A DNA stretch of 64,000 nucleotides, taken from Paecilomyces variotii. Taxonomy: Eukaryota. This document shows, piece after piece, positions 1 to 63,226 of this stretch. The notes under the pieces are model-generated. The model was not told where the DNA came from, did not search any database, and worked only from the letters and a program-made list of their open reading frames with translations. The translations under genes and the position numbers were made by a program. Numbering within the stretch: the first letter of the stretch is position 1; the number at the start of each line of letters is the position of its first letter. The stretch is from assembly GCA_004022145.1 (NCBI GenBank), contig RCNU01000012.1; one strand, written 5' to 3'.

Positions 1-1371
1 GACAGTCTCATCGGGGTTGATGTTATTACCAAGGGTGTTGCGAAGCCTTATGAACGGACGTTCGGCGAAGATGATATCAAGGAGACGACGGACAAGGATC
101 TGAAAGCATTGAGAGAGCAAATGAGTGGCCTGCGACTCTGGGGGGCCTGGGAACCCAACAGTAAGCTTCTCCCATTCGATTTACCTTCTTGGAGTAGTAA
201 TGATACTAACAAACGATGTATAGGAATCAAGCTCACACCCGAAAGAATTTACACTATGGCCTTCCATCCGACCGAAACGAAGCCATTGATATTTGCTGGA
301 GACAAAATGGGTCATATCGGAATTCTGGACGCTTCGCAGGAATATCCCGTCTCCGCAGTCAAGCATGAAGACGACGACGAGGAGGAGGATGACCCAGACC
401 CAGTTATGACCACCCTCAAGCCGCACACCCGCACCATAAGTGGGATGCATATACACCCACTGAAACCTACGCACCTCTATACCGCGAGCTACGACAGTTC
501 CATTCGAGAACTCGATCTCCAGACGGCCAGTTCCTCCGAGAAGTATGCTCCTGAATCCACTTCCACGGACGAGGCACTTTCTGGTGTGGACATGGCTGCA
601 GAAGATCCAAATTGCCTGTACTGGACAACTCTAGACGGCGCTTTTGGACGGCGCGACCTTCGCGCAAAGGACAACACGGTGGAGCGTTGGCAGCTCTCCG
701 AGAAGAAGATCGGAGGATTTTCTCTTTACCCGTCTCAGTCTCACTACTTTGCTACCGCAAGCTTGGATAGGTTCATGCGACTCTGGGATATGCGGAAGTT
801 GTCACACGATAATCCTGTGCCCGTAGGCGAGCACGAGAGCAGATTGTCGGTATCCCATGCGGCCTTCAACAGCGCCGGCCAAATAGCGACATCATCCTAT
901 GACGATACCATTAAAATCTACGATTTCGCCGCCAAGGGAATATCCTCCTGGCAACCGGGCCATAAGGTCTCAGATGAGGATATGAAACCCGACACCATTG
1001 TTAGGCATAACTGCCAGACAGGTCGTTGGGTTACCATGTACGTATTTTCGTCCCCTTATTTCACCCTCCGTTGTTCCCAGCACTTCCTCCTGCTATACCA
1101 TATTTTTAATAATAACCACGAATTCCAACCCGTAACTGACACAACTAACAGTCTCCGTCCCCAATGGCAACTAAACCCGCAATCCCACATTCAGCGATTC
1201 TGCATTGGAAATATGAACCGCTTTGTCGATGTCTACAGCGCCTCTGGAGACCAGCTCGCCCAGCTAGATGGCGAAGGCATCACTGCTGTGCCTGCCGTAG
1301 CTGTCTTCCACCGAAGTATGGACTGGGTTGTCGGTGGTACGGCGAGCGGTAAGATCTGTTTGTGGATGTAA
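1..1371 (+). CDS. cmr1: WD40-repeat DNA damage-binding protein Cmr1/WDR76, 5'-truncated at the window edge; introns 161-223 and 1038-1151
   Basis: Motifs [58 protein letters not shown] and [12 protein letters not shown]. Removing GTAAGC..TAG and GTACGT..CAG introns restores the family sequence. Confidence 0.92.
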
Positions 1372-1945
1372 ATGTGTGTGGATTGATGGTACGAGAAGTG
1401 ACATTAAAAAGCGTCCACGATTCTGCGGAGGACTATTGTACTGTATCTTTGTTGTGTGATATTTTGTAAGAGTTTGGGATTCACTGGGAATCGGCGTCTG
1501 TATTGCATGCAATAAGGTCATCCTGTGTTAGACTCATTGTATTTTCTGGCTTGGCCATCATTTTGTGGCGAGTTCGTTGGAGGATCAAAAGTGACTATTA
1601 CTCACCATAACAGTAGCGAAGTAGTAGTAGTAGTAACCAATGCAAAATGTACAATATCAACTACATGTTTTCTCAAGCACCCATTAGACCAGTCTGTGTT
1701 TCTAATTCGGAATTCTAGAATATGATAAGTTCTGAGTGTCAAATGAGGCGGTAGGGTATCATTCAAGATCGACCAGATCATATATCGAAGGATTATTCCC
1801 AAATATGCTCGTTTAAATCGCCGCGCGATCCCAAAATGTATCCCAGAAGAACAAAAAATGGCCAATTCCATATGTGCAATATGCGCAGAAAATATTCATG
1901 GTATCATGCGTAAATGACAGTCATACTGTGAGTGCGAATCTCATC

Positions 1946-4900
1946 TCACTGCTCGTCATCGCTGTCCAAAACAACATATCTGCTCGTCCTTCGTCTCTTC
2001 TGAGATCTGGACGTGCTAACTCTAACCTCATGAAGACGTTTCCGACTGCTTTCCAGCATTCGTTCGCTTTCGTGTTCGGAATTGATCACGGTACTGCTGG
2101 AATCCGACAATATTGACGGTGTGGCATCTCCGGATCCGAGGAAGCGGTCCGTTATCGTCGTGGTTACCCTGTGGATCGTCTCCTGGGTGGATGTTTCAGA
2201 GCGTAGGATTCGTCGTCGTCTTGATTGTTTCTCGGACGGAAACGCATCTTGTGAGGCTGGGATGGGAGCTGAACTATCTCTGCGGTCGATGAGGTTGTCT
2301 TCATACTTGTTGATGATAGATTTCGTGGGATTGTCGGAGGTAACGACATTGGAGGTGGCTGCGGTCATTCGCTCGTTTTCTAGACAGGCCTCTCTCAACG
2401 TCATTCCGAGAGACAGTGCGACCTGTCTCGCGACGCTGTTCCCTATGATCTTCCACTGCTTCGTGGCACTGCCGATGAGAATTTCATCATCTGGGATGCC
2501 TTGCGCTCGTCTTGCTTCCTTGACCGTCAACAGTCTATCTTCCTCCCAGTGCACGATCCTCCCGGTAAATGCGCATGCAGGATTGACTCTCGTAACGATT
2601 GTCGGAAATAGTCCGTTTGGATGGACGCGGCCGTAAGAACTGGCCTCTTTTTTAGCCCACGCCCTTCTCCTCTTGCAAAAAGCTTCAGTCTGTGGTTTAG
2701 CCATCCAACCTCTCAAAACTGAAGTCTCCAGACCTTGTGTCCAGGGAGCCTTTGGAACGAGCTCAATCAAGGTTTGTTCGTAGCAAGTTGGTTTCTGTGC
2801 TGTCCTCATATCCGGGTCGGATATTGTCATGCACTTCGCCGTAGCTAGACGAGGAAGGTCTCTTGTCCCCTCTGCGGCCGTGACGAAATCGAAGACGGGT
2901 GTTTCGAATCTTCTGCGGCCGAATGGAAGTCCGTTCGCAGCCTCTCCCAGTGATCTGTTCGTGGTCCTTGGAGGATGTGAGTGAGTAAGCGCAGGGTGCT
3001 CTGGCAGCTTTAGGCCTGGAGCAGCCACAAAGATAAATAGCCTCGACCTGCTCTGAGGTGCACCGAAGCTCCATGCGTCCAGATTCAGTATGCGAGCTTG
3101 ATAGCCCATGCCAATCAAGGCACAAAGCATCTGCGACAAGGGGTTCTTCTCACTCCTTTTGGCCATGGCGGTGACGTTCTCCAGGACAGCATATTTTGGC
3201 CGGAGATGATCAATAAAAGCAGCCACAGAGGCGATCATTGAGCAGTTACGGAGTGCTGTCTGATTTTGCTTGAAGTTGTTAGTCAAGGCATACCCCTGAC
3301 AGGGACTCCCTGCAGAAATGAAGTCGACTTCTCCCACTCTGGCAACGATATTGCTTTCCTTTCCTTTCAGGGACTGGTCAAGAAAGTCGTCCACAGAGCC
3401 CCAAAACAATTTGGCCCCTGGGTGTCTCAAGTTGGCACGATATGTGAGCATGGCTTCCTTGCTCCATTCGACAGCCCACTCGTTCATCACAGCTCCGCCT
3501 TCTTCTAGGCCCCTGTCGAAACTGCCACCACCGCTGAAGATGCTGAGAGCTCGTAGTTGTACGACTGGTGCCTTAGGATCAAAACCCTGCGTGAGAGAGG
3601 CAGGTAAAGATGAGATTTCGAGCGGCTGTAAGGAGCTGATGCCTTCTGGAGACGTCACTTCACGGCAGATAATGAAAAAGGCATCTCCATTTCCTTGACG
3701 GCAATACGGAGGAGGGATCAAGCCATTATTTCTCTCATATTCGCTGTAGAAGCGGACATGACATCGTCGTTGGACATGACCAATGTGACTGCTTCGAGTA
3801 CGGTCAGTATATACCAGCTCGTTTCGGTCACCTCCCTTTCTCTGCAGAAGCTCCCTCACTCGCAAGTTCTTGCCGGAACAACTGATGATTTCTACCGGCT
3901 CCAGCTTGCTTCCAGTATCTACCAAAACAGTATCACCAGGATGATATGTTTCTCGGCCGCTGTCACCCAAGCCCGAATATTTTTTTCGGTGAGAACAGTA
4001 GAAATCTTCCTCTTTCAAGGTCAGAAAGACCTCGTCATCCGTATGATAGGTCTGACGCACAAAGAATGGTGCCCCTTCTCTGGCCACAGACGAGAAAAAC
4101 CTTACATCGACCTTCCCCACGACTTCGGTATTTCGGATCTTATGGTCTCCGCAGTTGCAGTGGTCGGACATGAAGAGCTCGTTCAGATGGGGGTATGTCA
4201 TGTTGGCACAGACAGTATCACTGGGTCGGTACAGCCAAATGACATCAAGCCAGATCGTCCCATTCTGATGCTGCCTGATACCTTGTACAAAGGAATACCA
4301 AAGATCATCGTTGGAACTGGTCTTCCATACAGTCTGCTCATCCCTCTCCACAGAGATAACATCGCCGGGGCGAACTTCAAATGCCTTGTGCGGTACGGGA
4401 GCTGAGTAGAGACCGCCTCCGCATGGCTTGAACTTGAAATCGGGCTTTGATGATTCGAAACCAAGCTCCCGCATGCGTTCTTGCTGTTTTAGAAGAACGG
4501 TTGGTGTTGGCTGCGACACCTGCAATTGTTCACCCCACTCCATGTTTTGAAAACAGCGGTAGACATATGGAGTAACGACAGTCCCTTTCGCTCGTTGAGA
4601 CTGTTCTTTGATAATTGGCTCCGTGAGGCCAATCTCCTGCCACAATATGGAATTCTCGTATTTCCTATCGATGTCCACGGCTTGTTTGAAGAGATACTCT
4701 CCATAGGCAATCACAGCTGACCTAAAGTCAGGCTTTCCAAATTGACAAAACCAGTTCTGAAAGGAAGTGTCCGAACTGTGCACTTGCTGTAACCAGTCTG
4801 CAAAGCCACTTTTGAAGTCGTTAAGGGTAACCGTGTCATGCTCGGCCAGGAAGTCCAGAAGATGCTTGCCAAGATCCGTTAACCATAGAAAGATCTCGTA

Positions 4901-5446
4901 GTATGGTCTGTATTCCGGGGACGGCCCGGAAAGATGGTACCAGATATCTCCTTTCCTTTTGCCGTGAACAGACTGGATCCAGATATCGGACCCAACTGTA
5001 TGCTGCTCAACCTTCTCATAGCCACCAATGGAAACGTATTCAAATGGTACGCGTCTTAGAAACATCCGCCTTTCTCCTTTGAGGTTTAAGATCCCATCGA
5101 AGAAGAACTTCGTGTTGCCTTGTCTGAGAGCAACCTCGTGCAGAGAGGTCAGTTCATCTCCACCGAAATAATTCGAATCACGATACACACTGAACTGGTC
5201 GAGGTCGACAGATAGAAATTCGTCACCTCCGTAGGTTTCCTTCTTGGTGGAAGAGTCTCCCAGGAGGATGTTCAGGGCGTCTGTCTCTTCGATCAGGGGT
5301 AAAGGTGGTCCCCATCCCACATACTGCGAAAGTGGAAACGAAATCGGCGGCAGGTTGATTCCCCTGAGGACCTCATAACGAGAATTTCCTTCCCGAAACC
5401 GCTGGGAGTATCCTTCAGTGTCATCTGCAGATTCATCGGCATTCAT
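1946..5446 (-). CDS. dim-2: DIM-2-type C5 cytosine DNA methyltransferase, single exon, ~1166 aa from the first ATG (MNADES)
   Basis: C5-MTase motifs in order: I LSIFSGGGSFDRGLEEGG, IV SAGSPCQG (catalytic Cys), VI LENV, VIII GAPQSRSRLF, IX LTVKEARRAQG, X IGNSV. Upstream BAH-like regions (VIWLYRPSDTVC..YPHLNELFMSDHCNC; RRCHVRF) and a long N-terminal domain fit DIM-2 rather than RID/DmtA. Confidence 0.9.
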   Translation of the reverse strand: MNADESADDTEGYSQRFREGNSRYEVLRGINLPPISFPLSQYVGWGPPLPLIEETDALNILLGDSSTKKETYGGDEFLSVDLDQFSVYRDSNYFGGDELTSLHEVALRQGNTKFFFDGILNLKGERRMFLRRVPFEYVSIGGYEKVEQHTVGSDIWIQSVHGKRKGDIWYHLSGPSPEYRPYYEIFLWLTDLGKHLLDFLAEHDTVTLNDFKSGFADWLQQVHSSDTSFQNWFCQFGKPDFRSAVIAYGEYLFKQAVDIDRKYENSILWQEIGLTEPIIKEQSQRAKGTVVTPYVYRCFQNMEWGEQLQVSQPTPTVLLKQQERMRELGFESSKPDFKFKPCGGGLYSAPVPHKAFEVRPGDVISVERDEQTVWKTSSNDDLWYSFVQGIRQHQNGTIWLDVIWLYRPSDTVCANMTYPHLNELFMSDHCNCGDHKIRNTEVVGKVDVRFFSSVAREGAPFFVRQTYHTDDEVFLTLKEEDFYCSHRKKYSGLGDSGRETYHPGDTVLVDTGSKLEPVEIISCSGKNLRVRELLQRKGGDRNELVYTDRTRSSHIGHVQRRCHVRFYSEYERNNGLIPPPYCRQGNGDAFFIICREVTSPEGISSLQPLEISSLPASLTQGFDPKAPVVQLRALSIFSGGGSFDRGLEEGGAVMNEWAVEWSKEAMLTYRANLRHPGAKLFWGSVDDFLDQSLKGKESNIVARVGEVDFISAGSPCQGYALTNNFKQNQTALRNCSMIASVAAFIDHLRPKYAVLENVTAMAKRSEKNPLSQMLCALIGMGYQARILNLDAWSFGAPQSRSRLFIFVAAPGLKLPEHPALTHSHPPRTTNRSLGEAANGLPFGRRRFETPVFDFVTAAEGTRDLPRLATAKCMTISDPDMRTAQKPTCYEQTLIELVPKAPWTQGLETSVLRGWMAKPQTEAFCKRRRAWAKKEASSYGRVHPNGLFPTIVTRVNPACAFTGRIVHWEEDRLLTVKEARRAQGIPDDEILIGSATKQWKIIGNSVARQVALSLGMTLREACLENERMTAATSNVVTSDNPTKSIINKYEDNLIDRRDSSAPIPASQDAFPSEKQSRRRRILRSETSTQETIHRVTTTITDRFLGSGDATPSILSDSSSTVINSEHESERMLESSRKRLHEVRVSTSRSQKRRRTSRYVVLDSDDEQ

Positions 5447-6709: not shown

Positions 6710-9700
6710 TTAAAACTCATTTCGTGGTTCCTCTCGTGGTTGTAGCTGCTGCTGATGGGACCCGTCCCGATCTTTTGCTTTCCGCCTCGATGGCGCTGGA
6801 ACTAAGTCTTGGATCGAACTCAAGAAGCGGTATTTGCCCGATGATTCACGTGAAATGCTAGATCGCCGTCCTCCTTTGGAGGTCTCAGAGAAGTCAAGCG
6901 AATATGTAGATGAATTTTTTGAGCTACTAGCACCTTCACGCGGCTCAGACCAACGTGGCGTAGAGAAGGGTAGTCGGCTCGGATCCCACGTAGCGGATGA
7001 AGAGCTTGGGGGCGTATAATCGTCCCCATCATCAGCATTATCCGTAGATCTGCGCGGCAAGGCCGGCCGCGGGGAGAAGTAGCCTATGGAGTTCCTTTTA
7101 CTCCCAATTAGAGAGGCGGGCCCAGTCATCGGGGTCTCTGTAGCCGGCGTATTGGGCTTGCTTGAACTCTCATCGTAGAAAGTGGCGGATTTCTCTATGG
7201 ATTCAACAAGCTCTTCCCATTTCACTTCCAAGTTCCCGTTTGGTCGTTCGGCTTGTTCGGCCTTGCTCAAGCATTCTTTGGTTCGCTGGCTCAGCTCCAG
7301 GGCTAAATTGTGGAACTTCTCAAGATTGACGTCGATCTCCTCCAGCTCCTCTAGCCTCGCCGGGGCACTTTCAAGCCACAGGCTAGTTAGCGCCGCAAAA
7401 CTCCTGGCATGGTCGATGAGAAAAGGCAAACTAGGAAAGCCTTCCCGAGAGGTAGGAGGGAGACGGCCAAGAATCTGGATTGGAGTCGCGTAGGACGGGG
7501 ACACGGTTTGCGCTGGCCGCTCCGCAGGTATCGAACATATGCGATCCACATATTCTTTGAACTCTCCACGATGACTGACCAAGAACCTATTCATAGGCTC
7601 CATCCAAGGTTCTTTGTTGCCAAAAGAAGTCATGTTTGCCAGACCTTGCAATGCTTTGGCGATAAGAGTCAAGGTACGCTGGGCACGCGGCCGAGGGTGC
7701 TCTGTCAAGTATATTAGACACTTGTTCAGTCATGACGGGCTCGAGGAATACATACCTTTCAGGAGCCCAAAAAGTTTGGGGTTCAGAATTGCAGGGCAAA
7801 AGAAGCGCAAGAACAGGAAACCAGAAACACTGCTGTAAGTGACCGAACGGAGGAAGTCTCCGTAGCGATCCTCAGCACATGCTCTGATGTGCCGGAATAT
7901 GAGTCGTAGTTCATCTGGACATTTTGTAGCGGAACGGGAAATAGAACTCCACACCCTGCTGGTCAAATCTATAAGATTCCTCCAGTTGCGTTCAAGGTCT
8001 TCCTCGCGTTGCACGCGAACAGGATCAACCTCACAGTCGGGGTCACTCTGGTCGATGCGGCGAAGCTGCTCACCAATGGTCTCTTGAAGATATTCTTTTC
8101 CAAGCCGGCGCATATGTAGATCAAGGGCCTTGGTCAGGAGGGAGTTACCACGAAAAAGAAGGTTAGCTTCGACTGTAGCCGACCGCCCCAGGTCTCTCAC
8201 AAGCACCTCCCGCTCTTGCGCAGACGACTCCCTAGAGTCATTCGAGTGTAGCCTAGTCGTGTACCTCAATCTGGTCATCGTCGACTCCTTATGGACTCCA
8301 TCGATTTCGTCCTCAATGAGCGCCGAGATCCATTCAACTACCTGGCCTGACACCTGATAGATATTGAGCAGGGTCTCCGCTAGTAGCGCTAACTCAGCTG
8401 ACAAAATTTGAGAGATATTTACGGTAAGGCTGTTAGGAAAGTTGTGTAAAAGTTGTGACATAGGCTCATATTCGTGGGACATCAGAACGATCGTCTCCTC
8501 CAATCGTGCTCTCATGAAAATCTCACCCACAGGCTGATCCCTGTCGTCCAGGATCGGCCACCATTTTTCGACGTTGGTACCAGTCTCAAGTTCATCGAGC
8601 CTCAAATCGACGCGGCCGAAAGTAGCATCGTGCGACGCGATTTCAAGATCATCCAACATGTTCATTGGGTTGGCTTCGCCGTTCAGGTTGTACGGCGTAC
8701 GCGAAATGAGAGTCCAGTCCTTTTGGCTTGGATTGAGAGTCTTCAGGAGAATCGAGGCATTGGAGAGAACGGGAGGAAGGTCACTGAATACGAATTCTTC
8801 TCGCCAGAAAGGTGTTGACGTGTTATACTTCACTGCGGTCTTCGCTCTGACTTCACTATCAAGAAGGACTTCAACATAGTAGTCACTCACTGCCCTGCTA
8901 GCCGAAGCCTGAGATCTTGACATTTTTCTGTTCCTTGGTAGTTCTTCTTCCTTTGTATTCAGGAGCTTCGCCTCAGTGACTCGTATCGACAGCATACGTT
9001 CGATTCGGAACATGTCCGCTGTTGAGGTTGGAGCAGGACCGGTCAGGCTCTGCCGACGGCTCGAATCTCCGCTTGCTACTGACTCGGGTCCATAAAGTTC
9101 AGGGATGGTAAATGCGCGTAATAAAACGAACCAAACCTCAAATAGCACCCGGGATTCCAAGGAGAGAAAGATTGGACGATTGATCGCCGGTTGGGATCCG
9201 GAATGTGCTGCATACTGTGGGTAAATGGCGATGCAGAACTCGTCATCCAGCACTGAAGACTCTAACTGTTGGATTGCGCACCGGGAGAGCTGGGACAACT
9301 GGATGCACGATACGAGTGTCACATCCGCTTCCGTATAAAGCTTGAAGTAGCCGTTCTCTTGCAGAGTACAGCTGACTTTCTGCCAAGATGTGGAATAAGA
9401 CCTTTGCTGCCGGTCGGCTGACGCCCTGCGTCCGGAGGAAGGCCGTGGCCCGGAGGTGCCCTGTTTGTCCCAAAGCAGCATCTTGCCAACCTTGATGACT
9501 GCCGCTTCTTTCTGCACGTTAGTTTCGGAGTTTCGTCTACGATCCCCCAGACGTCGCTCGCCCATTGAAACTGACTGGGGCTTGGTCATTTTGTTCTGCA
9601 CACCCTTCGGTCGTATCGGTTGCCAACACAGTAAGGCGGCCAGCCATGAATCAAAGGTCTCATGCACGTGCGGCCTCAGTTGGATCCCCATCCCTGATGA

Positions 9701-10585
9701 GAAAGTTGACACGCTCAGATAGGTACATTGGAGCTCTGTATCGAACAAGGTCCGGACGTGACAGCCACGCAAGTCCGGAATCAAAGTCTTAGCGAGTGAG
9801 GGTTCTCCCTTGGCTTGGTATATTAGACTTCCCGTGGCCACATTGATAGCGCAGTATCCGGACGTCCATGAGGCGGTGGAAGCGGTCCGAAAGGAAAGAA
9901 TACCATGCATCCTTCCACAGGTCGTCTTCATCAGCTGCAGTATCTTCGTCGCATCTGCGTTAGACAGGGGTGACGCGAGAGCTGGGGGATTCCGGATTAT
10001 CCCAGTCGACGTTGTCGCTGCCGGAGGAGATTTCGTTAGACGTTGACGAGCACCTGCATAGTTGAAGAAAGTCGGGGATTGGATGATTGAAGGAAAGCCT
10101 ATGGAGTGTTCTTCCGGCGCCTTCAGAGTCGATGCCGTATTGATGGACCCGAGACGATTCCGAGTCCTTGATAGAAAGGAATTGGGGGATATCTCGCTTC
10201 TCTGGTCATCCAACGTTGTAGTTCGGGACCGCGCTCTCTGGCTTCTAGACTCCGAGATATCGTCCTCATCACCGGCGGAATAATACGGTGCGAACTCCCG
10301 CCGACGATCGCGGTCTCGTGGTCTTGGTCTGATCGTGGACCGTGGTGATGCAGCACTGCTAGCGGAGAGGAACTCCGCTTCAGATATGGGGGAGTGATTG
10401 CCCGTGTCAGACATCGAATCAGGCGTCACCGTCCGAATGCTGGTCTCTCTGAAGTTATCTGGGTACACCATGCCGTGGCGGTCCTCCGATGACGATTTCT
10501 TGCTAGGCCGCCGCTCAAATGGGCGACTGTAAATCCCTTGCTGCCCTGAGCTTCTCTTGAATCCGTTGCGACGTTCCGACTCCAT
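6710..10585 (-). CDS. bud2: Ras GTPase-activating protein, BUD2/CLA2 family (PH-like, C2 and RasGAP domains); intron 7702-7755
   Basis: C2 segment RAKTAVK..PFWREEF, arginine finger [11 protein letters not shown] and signature [14 protein letters not shown]. The splice joins [19 protein letters not shown]. Confidence 0.9.
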
Positions 10586-18589: not shown

Positions 18590-19480
18590 CTAATTCGGTC
18601 TTTTCTTTGCTTCTTCATTCTCAATTGCAGCCCAGACAAGCTCTGCAATGTCATGGACTAGCATGTCTTCAGTCATAACGAAATCACTTTCTCCTTCTCC
18701 TGGTTCGGTCAAAAACAAAGATTTGAATGGGATGACTAAATCCCCTCCTGTGATAGTCGGTTCTTGGCCATTCTTGCCTTTTTTGATCAGAATCCTTTGT
18801 GTAATCTGGGGCGGTGATTGAGTATTGCAACGCCTATCTACAACTTGGCGTTGGTGCATAGTGATGTAGATATGTTGTGGAACTGGCTCTGTAACCCAAG
18901 ATTTTATTTCAATATTTCCCGAGCCTCGTTTTATATCAATCGTGATACCCATTTTCACGCGTCCTTTTGATGCATGTAGCCACCAAGTGATATCCTTTTC
19001 CAGCTTCGCAGCTGTCTCTGGATAGCCAACTTCTAAAGCCACCGTCGGAAACTGTCCTCCTTGCCTTACTGGCATCCATGCGCGATCCGCTTGTTTTTTT
19101 CGATCTTTACCATCAACACGGGTAGCTCCTAGATAATGTAGTCGACGGAAAACTTTCATTTGAGTGGCTAGGACCGTCAGCACTCCTTCAAATTTACCGG
19201 CGGCTTCTTCATGTGGTTGGCTAGGTATTTTCAAAATAAGAGTTTGAAGTTGTGAAGAGTAATCCAGACGGCCGGGCAATTGTTCGTCAAGTTCGTCAAT
19301 CACTTCTGATGGAAATGCTTTGATGACAACAAAACAGTCGTACGGTGATATAGGAGGCAAGAGACTTTCCAGACTGCATTGTGGATCGTAGCGAAAGACG
19401 GGCGTGTTAGGAGGAAGGTGCGAGAGAAACTCATTCTCTGCGTCCGACATGATACTCTCGTTTCCATATACAGGCGACAT
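18590..19480 (-). CDS. Fungal PD-(D/E)xK / Uma2-like nuclease-fold hypothetical protein, intronless
   Basis: Uninterrupted ORF with LILKIPSQPHE, KQADRAW, FPTVALEVGYPET, LEKDITWWL and LVIPFKSLFL. Start placed at MSPVY; the upstream in-frame ATG at 19612 is possible. Confidence 0.7.
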   Translation of the reverse strand: MSPVYGNESIMSDAENEFLSHLPPNTPVFRYDPQCSLESLLPPISPYDCFVVIKAFPSEVIDELDEQLPGRLDYSSQLQTLILKIPSQPHEEAAGKFEGVLTVLATQMKVFRRLHYLGATRVDGKDRKKQADRAWMPVRQGGQFPTVALEVGYPETAAKLEKDITWWLHASKGRVKMGITIDIKRGSGNIEIKSWVTEPVPQHIYITMHQRQVVDRRCNTQSPPQITQRILIKKGKNGQEPTITGGDLVIPFKSLFLTEPGEGESDFVMTEDMLVHDIAELVWAAIENEEAKKRPN

Positions 19481-21643
19481 TTTCCGTGCGTTGCTTTTCG
19501 CTTCAAGTTTTCTTGATAGTTTCAAATCAATGGGATCAGCCAAATACTTCAAAGAAGCAAAAAGAATAAAAAAGTCGCCACGAAACTTCGGAAATCCACA
19601 TCTCAGTGACATCACGATATATAGGCGGTGAGGAATCTGTATGTATACCTATTCCGCAAACTCTCTGCGAAGTGTTGAAGCTGTACCACATTTCTGGCCA
19701 CTGCGCGACGGCAATCTGTTGACCGTAAGTGGTTGGCGTGGTACATAAGCCATTCGTTTGTGATTCTCAGGTACCATGTCAGGATATCGTTTGGGCAAGG
19801 TAAGTTACCTAACTAGGTAGTAAGAGTGTGGAGGTATAACTGATTTCAAAGTTTCTTTGTTGTCATGTGTGTTTGGGTGATGACTTGCAGGTGTATAACT
19901 AGTTAACTACTCCGTATGTATTATTAAACAATAGCCTGATTACTACTACTAGGAGTGCTATAACTATTATTGTATATCAAGGGGGTATCGGGCGAGTCAG
20001 TTGGAGGAGGACGCTTTAGTCTTCGCATGGGCCGTAAATGAAGAATTTCGAACATCTAAGGTAGAGAGCTTCGCATAGCAAAGAGTAGGGACGATCTCGC
20101 CAGCAAGTATCCGCCATCATTCAAGTAGTAAAACTCCTGGAAAACCCCAAATCGTCAGAGTCTACGGTTGTTCAAATTCTTGAGTCAGGAAGACGCTGCT
20201 TACAGTTACAGCTGACTCGGATGTTGTTTCCCACCCTACATGTCAGCCCGACAAGTACATCTTGGCTTCATGTTAGAGCGTAAATATATGACCAATTCCA
20301 GGTAATCCCAGGCGGTTAAGGAAAGCAAGAATCCAGGGCGTTTCAATTCCATCTGTTAGTCCGACATTCTCGTTTGTTTGGGCTGCTCTTATCTCTTGGC
20401 AGATCTTGAGCAATGTCGGTCTAACTGGCCTTTTATGGTGAGACTTGTTTCGACTCCTGTTGTTGGCGCCTGGAATAAGAGATGACTATGTAGTTAACTT
20501 CACGCATAACTACTAGTACTCCGTGGCCCATGGTCTCGAACAATGCTGGTATCACGAATAGAAGAAGAGTACAACGTTATCTGCTGCGATACATTCTTGC
20601 CAAGAGGTTGAAACACTCGCGGTCCGAGGTATGTCAGTAAATAAATCCCCGCGTTAAGGCAATGTGTTTCTGCAATTTCCCATTTCCCCTCTTTTTGGGT
20701 TAAGCTAACCATATGTCTGGACATTATGAAGTCTGCTGGAACCGAACCATATTATTATCGGTGAGAGAGTCGTTTATTTTTTTGTTTATGTTTTATTTTA
20801 TATTTTTTCTTTGGTTCGGAAGAGCGGTATTAGACATTGAGAAAAGCGCAACTCCTGGTGCTTAGACCTGCAACTGTCATGCGTTTCGGCTTTTGCTGTA
20901 GTAGTGAAAGGATGTCTGGTTATTATTATTATTTAGGACGGCAGCATTGTATAAATCCACAAGAGGCTTGGCCTTGATTGATCAGCCAAAGCCAGCAAGC
21001 CACGAGGAGAAAAAATAGTAAACGTAGCCGCTGTTGCACTGCTTTTGGCGCAGTTTGTCCCACCACGGATCTCGGTAGTATAGCCAAGGGACCAGTATGG
21101 GCTAATAATAATAATAACGGGTTAAAGGGGAGAGCGAGTGGGACTGCTAAGGAGGCCGGTGCCTGATCTGGTTTTCGCTCATCGAGACATCTGGGACTCT
21201 GGGGCACGCGACCTGTCGGAGGCGTACTCTAAAGCTCGTAGAGGCTTCTTCAGGGATGCGACCTGTCCAAGGGATGCTGGCTGGAGTGCGGAGATACTGA
21301 TTGCTGACCCGGCTGGACTGTCTTGGCTCTTCTTGGGTGTCTGTATCGGTGTATCCAAACGACCACCACATCTCGCTGTGCTGGCTTTTTCTTCGTTTCC
21401 TGCCAGAGTCATAATTATTAATATGACCTGAGAGTTCCTGCGGTGTTCTTGCTCCCGGTCATTATTGGATGATCGACGGGCTGTGAATGTGTCGTCGCAG
21501 GCAACTTGTTCGTGACATCGTTCTGCACGACACGCCCTTGCCTGCGTGGAGAGCAAAGGGTTGACCGTGGCGGTTAAGGAGAGGGCACATCCCCCCAAGT
21601 CTCTCATTTTCCCTTCGCCGTCTACCCACCGACTGTGCCTGTC

Positions 21644-60559: not shown

Positions 60560-61563
60560 CGCGAAAGTGGTTTTATTGTTTAATTATTATTATCCAACCG
60601 TTTCCTACGCTCTAGGAGCCCGCGGGTTCCGAGCGGAAGAAGCCGCCGACAAGGTCGGATATATTATGTATTATGGTACAGTGTGGAGTGAAACCACCTC
60701 TATCTAGCTGGGCTCCTTTTCGTTTTTCCGAGCAGATATTTCAATGCTATTCTGTCTCTTTGAGCATCAGTGAACCATGACTCGATGTCTTATACTCTGG
60801 ACCTATTCAATTAAGCTACGTAGGATCTGCCTGCCCCGCACCCCAAGTTGCAATGCCGGCTTATAGCGGAGAAAAGGTTGTACAGTTACTACAATTATCA
60901 ATACAATGTTGATCTGAAGACGATCACTTAACCAGCTAGGAGCAGAAAGGCGCGCAATGGTTCTTTCAGTCTCCCCGTTACACAATTGATTAGTAACACA
61001 TAGACTGACTGACTACTTAACTAACTAACTATCCGGGATAGCAATATATGCTGACTGAAGTGACTTCTCATTTCGAGACCCTGAACATTTGGAACTGCCA
61101 ATTCACTTGACACCCCGCATGATTCTTCGACCCAGATAAAAACAATGTGTCTTCTTTTCTGACAAGGTGTCAGACAACGGCTGCTTTTCCAGAATCACAG
61201 GGTCCTGGCGTTGACTGGACTCTTATCGGTCTCGCGACGGGTGGTAGTTCTGGTAACTCTAACATCACCTGATAGATTTGATTGCCTTTCTAGATCACTC
61301 CCCGCACTGCTTATCCTCAATGATCTCCTGATGAACGCCGTATGCGTCATGATTTCGTTTGGGCAAACCTATAATTGGAGAGTTACTGGAACACAATCAT
61401 GCTATACAGCCTGCAAAAGAGATACCCCTCCCGATCATGCCATCAATGATTTCTCATAAGAGGAGAGAGTCGAACAACGTCTCTTCTGCCGATTTAGCAG
61501 ATGAGTTGTTACTTCATATACTCTATAAACAAACAATTTTGATCAAAGCAAGGATACCCCAGC

Positions 61564-63226
61564 ATGAGCGACCGTCCAAATCGATTACAGGCTAGACGTC
61601 AGGATGGAGAGCCAATTGACATCTGGATCATCGGCGGTGGAGTTGCGTCCCTAGCTGCTGCGGTTTTTCTGATCAAGGACGCCAATGTTCTCCCGACTCA
61701 TATACACATCTTCGATGTCCATCCCGCCCTGGGAGGCGGCCTTACGAGATACGGTGACCCCGAGAAGGGGTATGTGCTCCATCCGGGGCAGACTATCTCC
61801 TACCACGACAGCTGCGTTGAGAAGCTCCTCTTGCAGGTCCCGTCGACTCATCCAGGACCGACGCCATGGGATAAACAGTTGGTCCAAAAGGGAGAGGACA
61901 GACGGCACGCGCGTCGTTTGACTCGTGCCATCGCCGTAGGTCCGTCAGGTCCTGAGAGATTGGACTCACAGAGACTTGGCCTCAACCTCCAAGACAGACT
62001 CGGCCTCATCCGGATCATGCTGGAAAACGAGCAAGCTCTCAGCGGGAAGCGGATCTGGGAGCTTTTCGATGGAGACTTCTTTAACACCAAGTTCTGGATG
62101 ATCTGGTCGACGACGTGAGTCATCCCAACAACGTCAAGTCCGACGAGCACCGCTAACCCGGTTCTTCAGATTCACTTTTACGCCTCATCATAGTGCAGTT
62201 GAATTCCGACGTTATCTTCGCAAGTATCTCCACGATCTTGGAAATGGTGGAAAGTTGAGCGGACCAGACGAGATCCGCAACTCACAATACGAATCGATCA
62301 TACGGCCCGTCTCGAAATATCTCCAAGAAGAAGGCGTCGACTTCCGCCTCGGAGAACAGGTGGTCGATGTCTTGACCTACCCGGATAGCGACCCAACTAC
62401 TGTCTCAGAAATCAAGTTCCAGGGGGAAGATGGATCCGAAAAGATGGTCACCCTGGACCCATGCGACCTGGTCTTTGTGGCTCTGGGCTCGATTGGCTCT
62501 GGCTCTGTCATGGGAAATAACGACGCTGCTCCTGGACAACCATCTGTCAAAACCTCCGCAAACGAATGGTCCCTGTGGGATAAGCTTGCTGGAAGATCGA
62601 TCAAGTTCGGCAATCCATCCAATTTCTGTACTAACCCTGCCTATTCAACAGTGGGAAAATTTACCGTGACCTTATATGATCCTGAATTCTTTGATCTGAT
62701 CGCGGAGACCACGGGACTGGCGCCAGGATCTCAACCGGTCTTGTCATTGCCTAGAAGCAACTGGGATATCAGCCTGAATATCCCACTACAGCCAGTAATC
62801 AGTAGCCAGCCTGATACGGTCAAGGTATTCTCAGGATGGGCTTTACACCCGGAAAAGAATGGAAATCATATCAAAAAGCCTATGATGCAGTGTTCAGGTG
62901 CCGAAGTGTTGCAGGAAATACTCAAACACCTCAATTTCCCCGACACTATCCTCTCGCATGCAGTAACGATTCCCTGCATCAGTCCACTTGCCACATCGGC
63001 ATTGCTGCCCCGTTCTCACAACGAGCGCCCCGAAATCATTCCTCGTGATACAACCAACCTCGCACTGTTGGGTCAATTTGTGGAAATCCCCGACGAACCA
63101 TCGCTGACGATGGAATACAGTGTCCAGAGCGCGCAGTTGGCCGTGGACCATTTCATGGGCGTGAAAAAGGAGATTCGTAGGTCCTGGCGTAATCACTTTG
63201 TGGAAATGTTGGATTTGCTTACTTGA
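61564..63226 (+). CDS. Oleate hydratase / myosin-cross-reactive antigen family flavoprotein; intron 62115-62169
   Basis: WIIGGGVASLAAAVFLIKDA, FFNTKFWMIWSTTF..HSAVEFRRY, QYESIIRP, FGNPSNF, IKKPMMQCSGAEVLQE, NLALLGQFVEIP and TMEYSV. Confidence 0.9.

What the first reader, a model, noticed from the sequence alone, without database searches (positions are those of the whole stretch)
1946..5446. Intact, intronless DIM-2 DNA methyltransferase inside a Eurotiales housekeeping block
Seen: one uninterrupted ~3.5 kb ORF with the C5-MTase motifs, including PCQ at ~3296-3304, and BAH-like domains. It sits between cmr1 and the RasGAP, both of which have introns. Known: model Aspergillus species have little 5mC and carry RID-like DmtA rather than DIM-2; Neurospora DIM-2 methylates heterochromatin and contributes to RIP. 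Inference: this fungus has a heterochromatic methylation system that its model relatives lack. It may be a retained ancestral gene, a relocation or a horizontal acquisition. My recollection that cmr1 and the RasGAP are adjacent in Aspergillus is unverified.
Basis: partly seen in the sequence, partly recalled or inferred. Interest (0 to 1): 0.72.

Follow-up and report, generated by a model that had tools for sequence, protein, structure and literature searches.

The report
Ancestral DIM-2 methyltransferase kept in Paecilomyces
This is an ordinary fungal DIM-2 DNA-methylating enzyme gene, still at its ancestral place in a Paecilomyces mould while Aspergillus and Penicillium relatives have lost it, with some signs that it may be weakening.

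Summary
The ORF is real (1946-5446, minus strand, 1166 aa, PCQ at 3296-3304). It is a single-copy DIM-2 orthologue; separate RID-like and DNMT5-like genes lie elsewhere in the genome. The organism is Paecilomyces variotii by its protein cluster. The DIM-2 tree follows the species tree. dim-2 sits beside cmr1 in 11 of 11 comparable assemblies of Thermoascus, Elaphomyces, Onygenales and Arachnomyces. In Aspergillus, Penicillium and Rasamsonia, cmr1 and the RasGAP are directly consecutive in 6 of 11 comparable Aspergillaceae and Trichocomaceae assemblies. Elaphomyces, sister to Trichocomaceae, keeps the gene, so Eurotiales probably lost it twice. An intron-free coding sequence is normal for the family. 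Both H3K9me3-reading cages and the core catalytic residues are kept, and HP1-like and DIM-5-like genes exist, so Neurospora-type heterochromatic methylation is the likely mechanism; 5mC was not measured. Against full activity: the catalytic-loop Ser whose Ala mutant is inactive in Neurospora is naturally Ala here (6 of 120 homologues), one P. variotii allele has PRQ for PCQ, and the protein evolves faster than in Thermoascus. A known enzyme in a poorly documented lineage; modest interest.

The parts
1946..5446 (-). dim-2 coding sequence, 1166 aa, no intron in the coding part
   Evidence: single copy in G000
4346..5236 (-). RFTS domain and linker (aa 71-367); first H3K9me3 cage F77, W156, D167, W169
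   Evidence: alignment to 9bap_A, E 9e-31; cage residues from PMC11315935, mapped by eye, tabulated
4079..4375 (-). BAH1 domain (aa 358-456); second H3K9me3 cage W374, W383, W404, Y406, D410, all identical to Neurospora
2405..3553 (-). C5 cytosine methyltransferase domain (aa 632-1014)
   Evidence: PF00145 E 9.7e-37
3296..3304 (-). catalytic PCQ (Cys716 = Neurospora C926)
3287..3289 (-). Ala720, at the place of Neurospora Ser930 (Ser in 112 of 120 homologues)
1672..1926 (-). 255-base intron in the 3' UTR of dim-2 (one RNA contig)
1..1371 (+). 3' part of cmr1 (WD40), convergent with dim-2; introns 161-223 and 1038-1151
6710..10585 (-). BUD2-like C2/RasGAP gene upstream of dim-2; intron 7702-7755
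3444..4253 (+). three GT..AG joints (3444-3508, 4020-4089, 4193-4253) on the strand opposite dim-2: a spliced antisense RNA in one run
   Evidence: longest ATG frame after joining them 129 aa

Best explanation
A vertically inherited dim-2 orthologue at its ancestral locus (cmr1 > < dim-2 < RasGAP) in Paecilomyces variotii. Aspergillaceae and, separately, Trichocomaceae deleted it. Most likely it works as in Neurospora: a DIM-5-type enzyme lays H3K9me3 on AT-rich, RIP-mutated repeats; an HP1 chromo-shadow dimer binds the N-terminal arm and target-recognition domain; the RFTS and BAH1 cages read H3K9me3; Cys716 attacks the flipped cytosine and SAM gives the methyl group, mostly at non-CG sites; it may add to RID-driven RIP before meiosis. 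Shown here: identity, origin, locus, transcription of the region, conserved cages and core catalytic residues, presence of HP1-like and DIM-5-like genes. Inferred from orthology: every mechanistic step and the existence of 5mC (about 0.6 that the enzyme methylates at a useful level). The confidence below is for identity and origin.
For: Best solved match is the Neurospora enzyme, E 2e-170, against 1e-38 for DNMT1. Homologue identity falls in species order: Paecilomyces 75-77%, Thermoascus 56-62%, Elaphomyces 55%, Onygenales 44-50%. Tree of 70 rows: window inside Paecilomyces (SH-aLRT 100), inside a Eurotiales clade (99), with Onygenales and Arachnomyces (100). dim-2 and cmr1 have consecutive accessions or locus tags in 11 of 11 comparable assemblies of 10 species; all three genes consecutive in 4 of them and in DNA order in Thermoascus contigs L012 and L033. 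None of the 120 listed DIM-2 hits bears an Aspergillaceae or Trichocomaceae name, against 71 of 120 Cmr1 hits (counted by eye). Penicillium-like contig L065: 1.2 kb between cmr1 and the RasGAP, no dim-2 relic. GC 0.50 and GC3 0.54 against 0.52-0.53 and 0.57-0.66 in five neighbours. Cages and S714, P715, C716, E756, R800, R802 conserved. HP1-like and Pre-SET/SET genes in G000. pN 0.23 against saturated pS 0.77 versus Thermoascus.
Against: No methylome was seen or found. Ala720 replaces a Ser whose Ala mutant abolished Neurospora activity; T1166 is Val (6 of 120). Allele P0122 has PRQ. Faster evolution than in Thermoascus. The HP1-binding motif could not be aligned by HMMER, and HP1-contact R1104 is Gln. 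Synteny rests mostly on accession order; 5 of 11 dim-2-less assemblies have unidentified models between cmr1 and the RasGAP. Only 120 of 802 DIM-2 hits were listed, and only proteins of 641-2041 aa were searched, so short relics would be missed. In the neighbour tree the Elaphomyces + Trichocomaceae group has SH-aLRT 90 on Cmr1 alone.
Confidence: 0.88

Rival explanations
1. Same origin, but the enzyme is weakened or on its way out: Paecilomyces DIM-2 makes little or no 5mC, and dead alleles are tolerated, as before the losses in sister families.
For: Ser to Ala at the Neurospora S930 position in all 4 Paecilomyces and both Elaphomyces rows, Ser in 112 of 120. PRQ allele in 1 of 15 listed cluster sequences, standing for 3 accessions. 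Relative-rate counts 111 v 78 and 123 v 63 against Thermoascus, but 24 v 26 for Cmr1 and 80 v 70 for the RasGAP. 11 of 26 listed dim-2 SNPs change the protein, against 1 of 11 in cmr1 (from a cut table). Spliced antisense RNA in run X7. Loss polymorphism of dim2 is described in Zymoseptoria and Magnaporthe (PMC13297926).
Against: Frame intact in all 15 listed alleles (but broken alleles would not join the cluster). Synonymous SNPs still outnumber the others (15 v 11). Departures from highly conserved columns: 15 of 249, against 22 of 249 in Uncinocarpus reesii, which has measured 5mC. Other lethal-in-Neurospora positions (Q941, R1175) differ across the whole family, so single-residue transfer from Neurospora is unreliable.
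Confidence: 0.3
2. The gene was relocated into this block or gained horizontally.
For: Absent from model relatives; no coding intron between intron-bearing neighbours. PMC12543289 reports poor synteny of the Dim2 locus across fungi as a whole.
Against: Tree congruent with species; same neighbours in Thermoascus, Elaphomyces, Onygenales and cmr1-linked even in contigs whose DIM-2 groups with Lecanoromycetes; 4 of 4 relatives' loci checked have 1109-1192 stop-free codons; host-like composition.
Confidence: 0.02
3. The protein is RID/Masc1 (DmtA) or DNMT5 rather than DIM-2.
For: All share PF00145.
Against: G000 has separate genes: a methyltransferase without BAH or SNF2 hit at C78 (RID-like by architecture; 28% over aa 637-808, 29 bits) and one followed by an SNF2 domain at C67. 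The window protein aligns to Neurospora DIM2 over RFTS, BAH and catalytic parts.
Confidence: 0.01

Closest known systems
Neurospora crassa DIM-2 (PDB 9bap/9baq/9baz; PMC11315935, Results parts 1-3 of 4 read)
   Same: Domain order NT-RFTS-BAH1-BAH2-MTase; BAH1 cage identical at 5 of 5 residues; RFTS cage aromatic or acidic at 4 of 4; S924, P925, C926, E966, R1013, R1015, T1100, T1164, T1167, K362, E649, N1050 identical.
   Different: Shorter (1166 aa v a 1456-residue chain); S930>A, Q941>A, R1104>Q, T1166>V, D1173>C, R1175>F. Q941, R1104, D1173 and R1175 differences are common among the 120 homologues; S930>A and T1166>V are rare (6 of 120 each). Activity untested.
Onygenales DIM-2, e.g. Uncinocarpus reesii (P0038)
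   Same: Orthologue, 46% identity; same RID + DIM-2 + DNMT5 set (PMC7862722 table 2); cmr1-linked locus in other Onygenales.
   Different: U. reesii has measured 5mC (0.68%) and keeps the catalytic-loop Ser.
Thermoascaceae and Elaphomyces DIM-2 (P0002-P0009); P0003 is already named 'DNA methyltransferase Dim-2' by NCBI
   Same: Direct orthologues; dim-2 beside cmr1 in the Thermoascus and Elaphomyces assemblies compared.
   Different: Thermoascus keeps Ser at the S930 position and evolves more slowly.
Aspergillus DmtA (RID/Masc1) and DNMT5
   Same: C5 methyltransferase fold; G000 has apparent counterparts of both.
   Different: Separate genes without the RFTS-BAH array; not this protein.

Membership tests
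DIM-2 | C5 methyltransferase domain with catalytic Cys, ENV and RxR motifs | tested here: met
DIM-2 | N-terminal RFTS and BAH domains with H3K9me3 cages | tested here: met
   residues mapped by eye from the HMMER alignment with a +2 chain offset
DIM-2 | Closer to Neurospora DIM-2 than to DNMT1, RID or DNMT5; nests among named DIM-2 proteins | tested here: met
   no tree with RID or DNMT5 rows was built
DIM-2 | PxVxL-like HP1-binding motif in the N-terminal arm | tested here: inconclusive
   I30-x-L32-P33 resembles V132-x-L134-P135 by eye and P33 is Pro in 81 of 120 rows; HMMER gave no match for aa 1-150
DIM-2 | All DNA-contact residues shown to be needed in Neurospora | tested here: inconclusive
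   T1100, T1164, T1167 kept; S930, Q941, T1166, R1175 changed; Q941 and R1175 differ in most homologues
DIM-2 | HP1 and DIM-5 partners encoded | tested here: met
   DIM-7 not searched
DIM-2 | Makes H3K9me3- and HP1-dependent 5mC at repeats | not testable with these tools
   no methylation data
RID/Masc1 | Methyltransferase without the RFTS-BAH array (PMC7862722: BAH absent) | tested here: not met
   BAH and RFTS present; a separate RID-like gene exists
DNMT5 | SNF2 helicase domain fused behind the methyltransferase | tested here: not met
   no SNF2 hit; separate gene at G000:C67

The most novel reading that the evidence does not exclude
Eurotiales show dim-2 in the act of being lost: deleted cleanly twice (Aspergillaceae, Trichocomaceae), while two of the three genera that keep it (Paecilomyces, Elaphomyces) carry the same substitution that inactivates the Neurospora enzyme, and P. 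variotii segregates a catalytic-Cys-less allele. DIM-2 here would be a weak or non-methylating H3K9me3 reader, in the one Eurotiales species where RIP has been shown by crosses, so natural alleles could separate its methylating from its RIP or scaffold role.
Probability: 0.25. Interest if true: 0.55.

Novelty: new member of a known kind. Interest (0 to 1): 0.3.

Why it matters
It corrects the shorthand that Eurotiales lack DIM-2 and maps the losses to two families. P. variotii can be transformed and crossed and has experimentally shown RIP (PMC6300479), so it is a ready system to ask what DIM-2 adds to RIP and why its relatives could drop it. The enzyme and pathway themselves are well known, and nothing here points to gene transfer.

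Tried and rejected
Horizontal transfer or relocation: rejected (tree, synteny, composition). Intron-free frame as a sign of retroposition: rejected, 4 of 4 relatives' loci checked are the same. Mutation context in repeats as a DIM-2 footprint: 12 DDE-transposon loci of G000; in four copy sets CpA was always the most mutated context (0.37-0.54 of cells; CpG 0.21-0.38, CpT 0.14-0.24, CpC 0.07-0.15). My recalled idea that DIM-2-driven RIP prefers CpT was wrong: it prefers CpA in Neurospora and Zymoseptoria, so the test cannot tell DIM-2 from RID. DIM-2 retention as a predictor of RIP: weak; a table of PMC12543289 rates Byssochlamys spectabilis (= P. variotii) 'recent RIP' but Elaphomyces granulatus, which keeps dim-2, 'no RIP', like the three dim-2-less species looked up (5 rows). 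dN/dS against Thermoascus: dS saturated, no ratio. Relic search in L065: nothing above threshold. The metagenome scan gave 80 loci, only one of them Aspergillaceae-like with both flanking genes; 13 of 80 had dim-2 in the fetched flank, many flanks are short and several loci are probably one species. In the EMCG assembly of Emmonsia crescens dim-2 and the RasGAP lie on different short contigs: inconclusive. RNA runs X5 and X7 leave parts of dim-2 uncovered, and run X2 crosses cmr1 introns unspliced, so it may hold DNA; contigs give no level or strand. Earlier findings by sequence and by words: none. No structure or complex was predicted: the sequence match to a solved structure made it unnecessary.
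Full report
Observation. The window holds one open frame of 1166 codons at 1946-5446 on the minus strand, with PCQ at 3296-3304 as reported. Pfam finds the C5 methyltransferase domain, one BAH domain and DUF7893. The gene converges on cmr1 (1-1371) and follows a C2/RasGAP gene (6710-10585). RNA contigs of run X1 show the neighbours' three introns spliced and no minus-strand joint inside the dim-2 coding sequence; two short gaps (3803-3903, 5204-5274) are uncovered in that run. One contig shows a 255-base intron in the 3' UTR (splice ends).

Identity. The best solved match is 9bap_A at E 2e-170, against 1e-38 for DNMT1. I take 9bap as Neurospora DIM2 because its residues match the numbering of PMC11315935 after a shift of two. 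G000 holds the gene once. It also holds a RID-like gene at C78 and a methyltransferase-SNF2 (DNMT5-like) gene at C67; the RID label rests on architecture only. All 13 named sequences listed beside the window protein in its cluster are Paecilomyces variotii.

Origin. Among the best 120 of 802 hits, identity falls from Paecilomyces through Thermoascus and Elaphomyces to Onygenales. None of the 120 bears an Aspergillus, Penicillium, Talaromyces, Rasamsonia, Thermomyces or Penicilliopsis name, whereas 71 of the 120 listed Cmr1 hits do (counted by eye). A tree of 70 of the 120 rows (my selection; quick IQ-TREE, SH-aLRT only, midpoint root) nests the window in Paecilomyces (100), in a Eurotiales clade (99), beside Arachnomyces and Onygenales (100). 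The four best unnamed rows below Elaphomyces that I could not name (P0007, P0010-P0012) fall with Elaphomyces, Arachnomyces or Malbranchea, not in a new Eurotiales branch.

Locus. dim-2 and cmr1 have consecutive accessions or tags in 11 of 11 comparable assemblies: three Thermoascus species, Elaphomyces granulatus (two), Helicocarpus, Polytolypa, Arachnomyces, Emydomyces and two Emergomyces species. The RasGAP is the next tag in T. thermophilus, Polytolypa and both Emergomyces; in Malbranchea one tag lies between. Thermoascus contigs L012 and L033 show the same three-gene order in DNA. Eight further metagenome loci have dim-2 0.7-3.8 kb downstream of cmr1, and their best-matching DIM-2 proteins group with Lecanoromycetes, so the linkage looks older than Eurotiomycetes. 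Where dim-2 is missing, cmr1 and the RasGAP are consecutive in 6 of 11 assemblies (Rasamsonia emersonii, three Penicillium, Aspergillus calidoustus, one A. melleus). In the other 5 (another A. melleus, A. affinis, A. lucknowensis, A. tanneri, Talaromyces proteolyticus) 1-3 models that I could not identify lie between. The Penicillium-like contig L065 has a 1.2-kb gap with no relic. Elaphomyces is sister to Trichocomaceae (PMC7426331; SH-aLRT 90 in my neighbour tree), so the simplest reading is two losses in Eurotiales. That is an inference from accession order and absence among the top hits.

How it most likely works. From PMC11315935: DIM2 needs HP1 and H3K9me3, read by cages in RFTS and BAH1. 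Mapped by eye and tabulated over 120 homologues, the BAH1 cage is identical at 5 of 5 residues, the RFTS cage is conserved in kind, and the core catalytic residues are identical. G000 encodes a chromo-shadow protein and a Pre-SET/SET protein, and carries stop-riddled, CpA-depleted transposon copies. So H3K9me3-guided methylation of RIP-mutated repeats is the likely job. No step of it was measured here.

Results against full activity. The Ser at Neurospora position 930, whose Ala mutant abolished activity, is Ala720 here, in all four Paecilomyces rows and both Elaphomyces rows; 112 of 120 have Ser. One listed P. variotii sequence (P0122, three accessions) has Arg for the catalytic Cys. Relative-rate counts show DIM-2 changing faster in Paecilomyces than in Thermoascus (chi-square 5.8 and 19.4), unlike Cmr1 (0.08) and the RasGAP (0.67). 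Of the variants shown (40 rows of 98), 11 of 26 in dim-2 and 1 of 11 in cmr1 exons change the protein. On the other side, all 15 listed alleles are full or near full length, silent changes still lead, and Uncinocarpus, which has measured 5mC, departs from more conserved columns (22 of 249) than the window protein (15 of 249). I put useful activity at about 0.6.

What is in print. PMC12543289 says Dim2 was lost in most Eurotiomycetes and that its locus is poorly conserved across fungi (passages; supplement legend part and rows; three large tables unreadable, seven files not searched). PMC7882544 reports DIM-2 absent from Talaromyces pinophilus, Penicillium chrysogenum, Aspergillus oryzae and A. 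fumigatus (passages). PMC7862722 lists A. flavus without and U. reesii with Dim-2 (passages and section 8). PMC6300479 shows RIP in P. variotii and never uses the word 'dim' (passages). Also seen as passages: PMC5307856, PMC13297926, 10.1101/115501, PMC8016269. Searches listed no title or abstract opening on DIM-2 or 5mC in Paecilomyces or Thermoascus; most listed papers were not opened, and one search was swamped by unrelated papers. Bewick et al. 2019 was not seen, and its supplement may already record this gene. NCBI already names the close orthologue P0003 Dim-2.

Verdict. A real, intact, ancestral dim-2: a new member of a known kind. What remains is a tidy loss map and a testable hint of decay. 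Interest 0.3.

Noticed in passing
P0122 (P. variotii allele; window codon 3299-3301): Catalytic motif reads PRQ instead of PCQ in a sequence held under three accessions: a probably dead dim-2 allele in the species.
   Followed up: partly
window 3444-4253, + strand: Three intron-sized GT..AG joints opposite dim-2 in run X7 (depth 5-7, one contig each): a spliced antisense RNA, probably non-coding.
   Followed up: partly
window about 5430-5446: The N-terminus is 43 aa shorter than allele P0130 and lacks a segment that P0002-P0004 have: an in-frame deletion polymorphism ahead of the putative HP1 motif.
   Followed up: partly
window 1-1371: Both cmr1 introns (63 and 114 bases) keep the frame and hold no stop, so the unspliced frame stays open and a database model (P0148, 588 aa) reads through them.
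   Followed up: yes
v; L014, L035: Chaetothyriales names appear among Cmr1 hits but not among the 120 listed DIM-2 hits: perhaps a further loss in Eurotiomycetes, or faster divergence.
   Followed up: no
G000 loci L091-L102: 11 of 12 DDE_1 loci have in-frame stops, nearly all TAA or TAG, and the AT-richest are CpA-depleted: RIP-type decay.
   Followed up: partly
window 18590-19648, - strand: 352-aa frame with no Pfam hit at E 0.001, in a stretch of lower GC.
   Followed up: no
window 61543-63226, + strand: MCRA-family gene (PF06100, E 4.7e-111); oleate-hydratase-like by recall.
   Followed up: no
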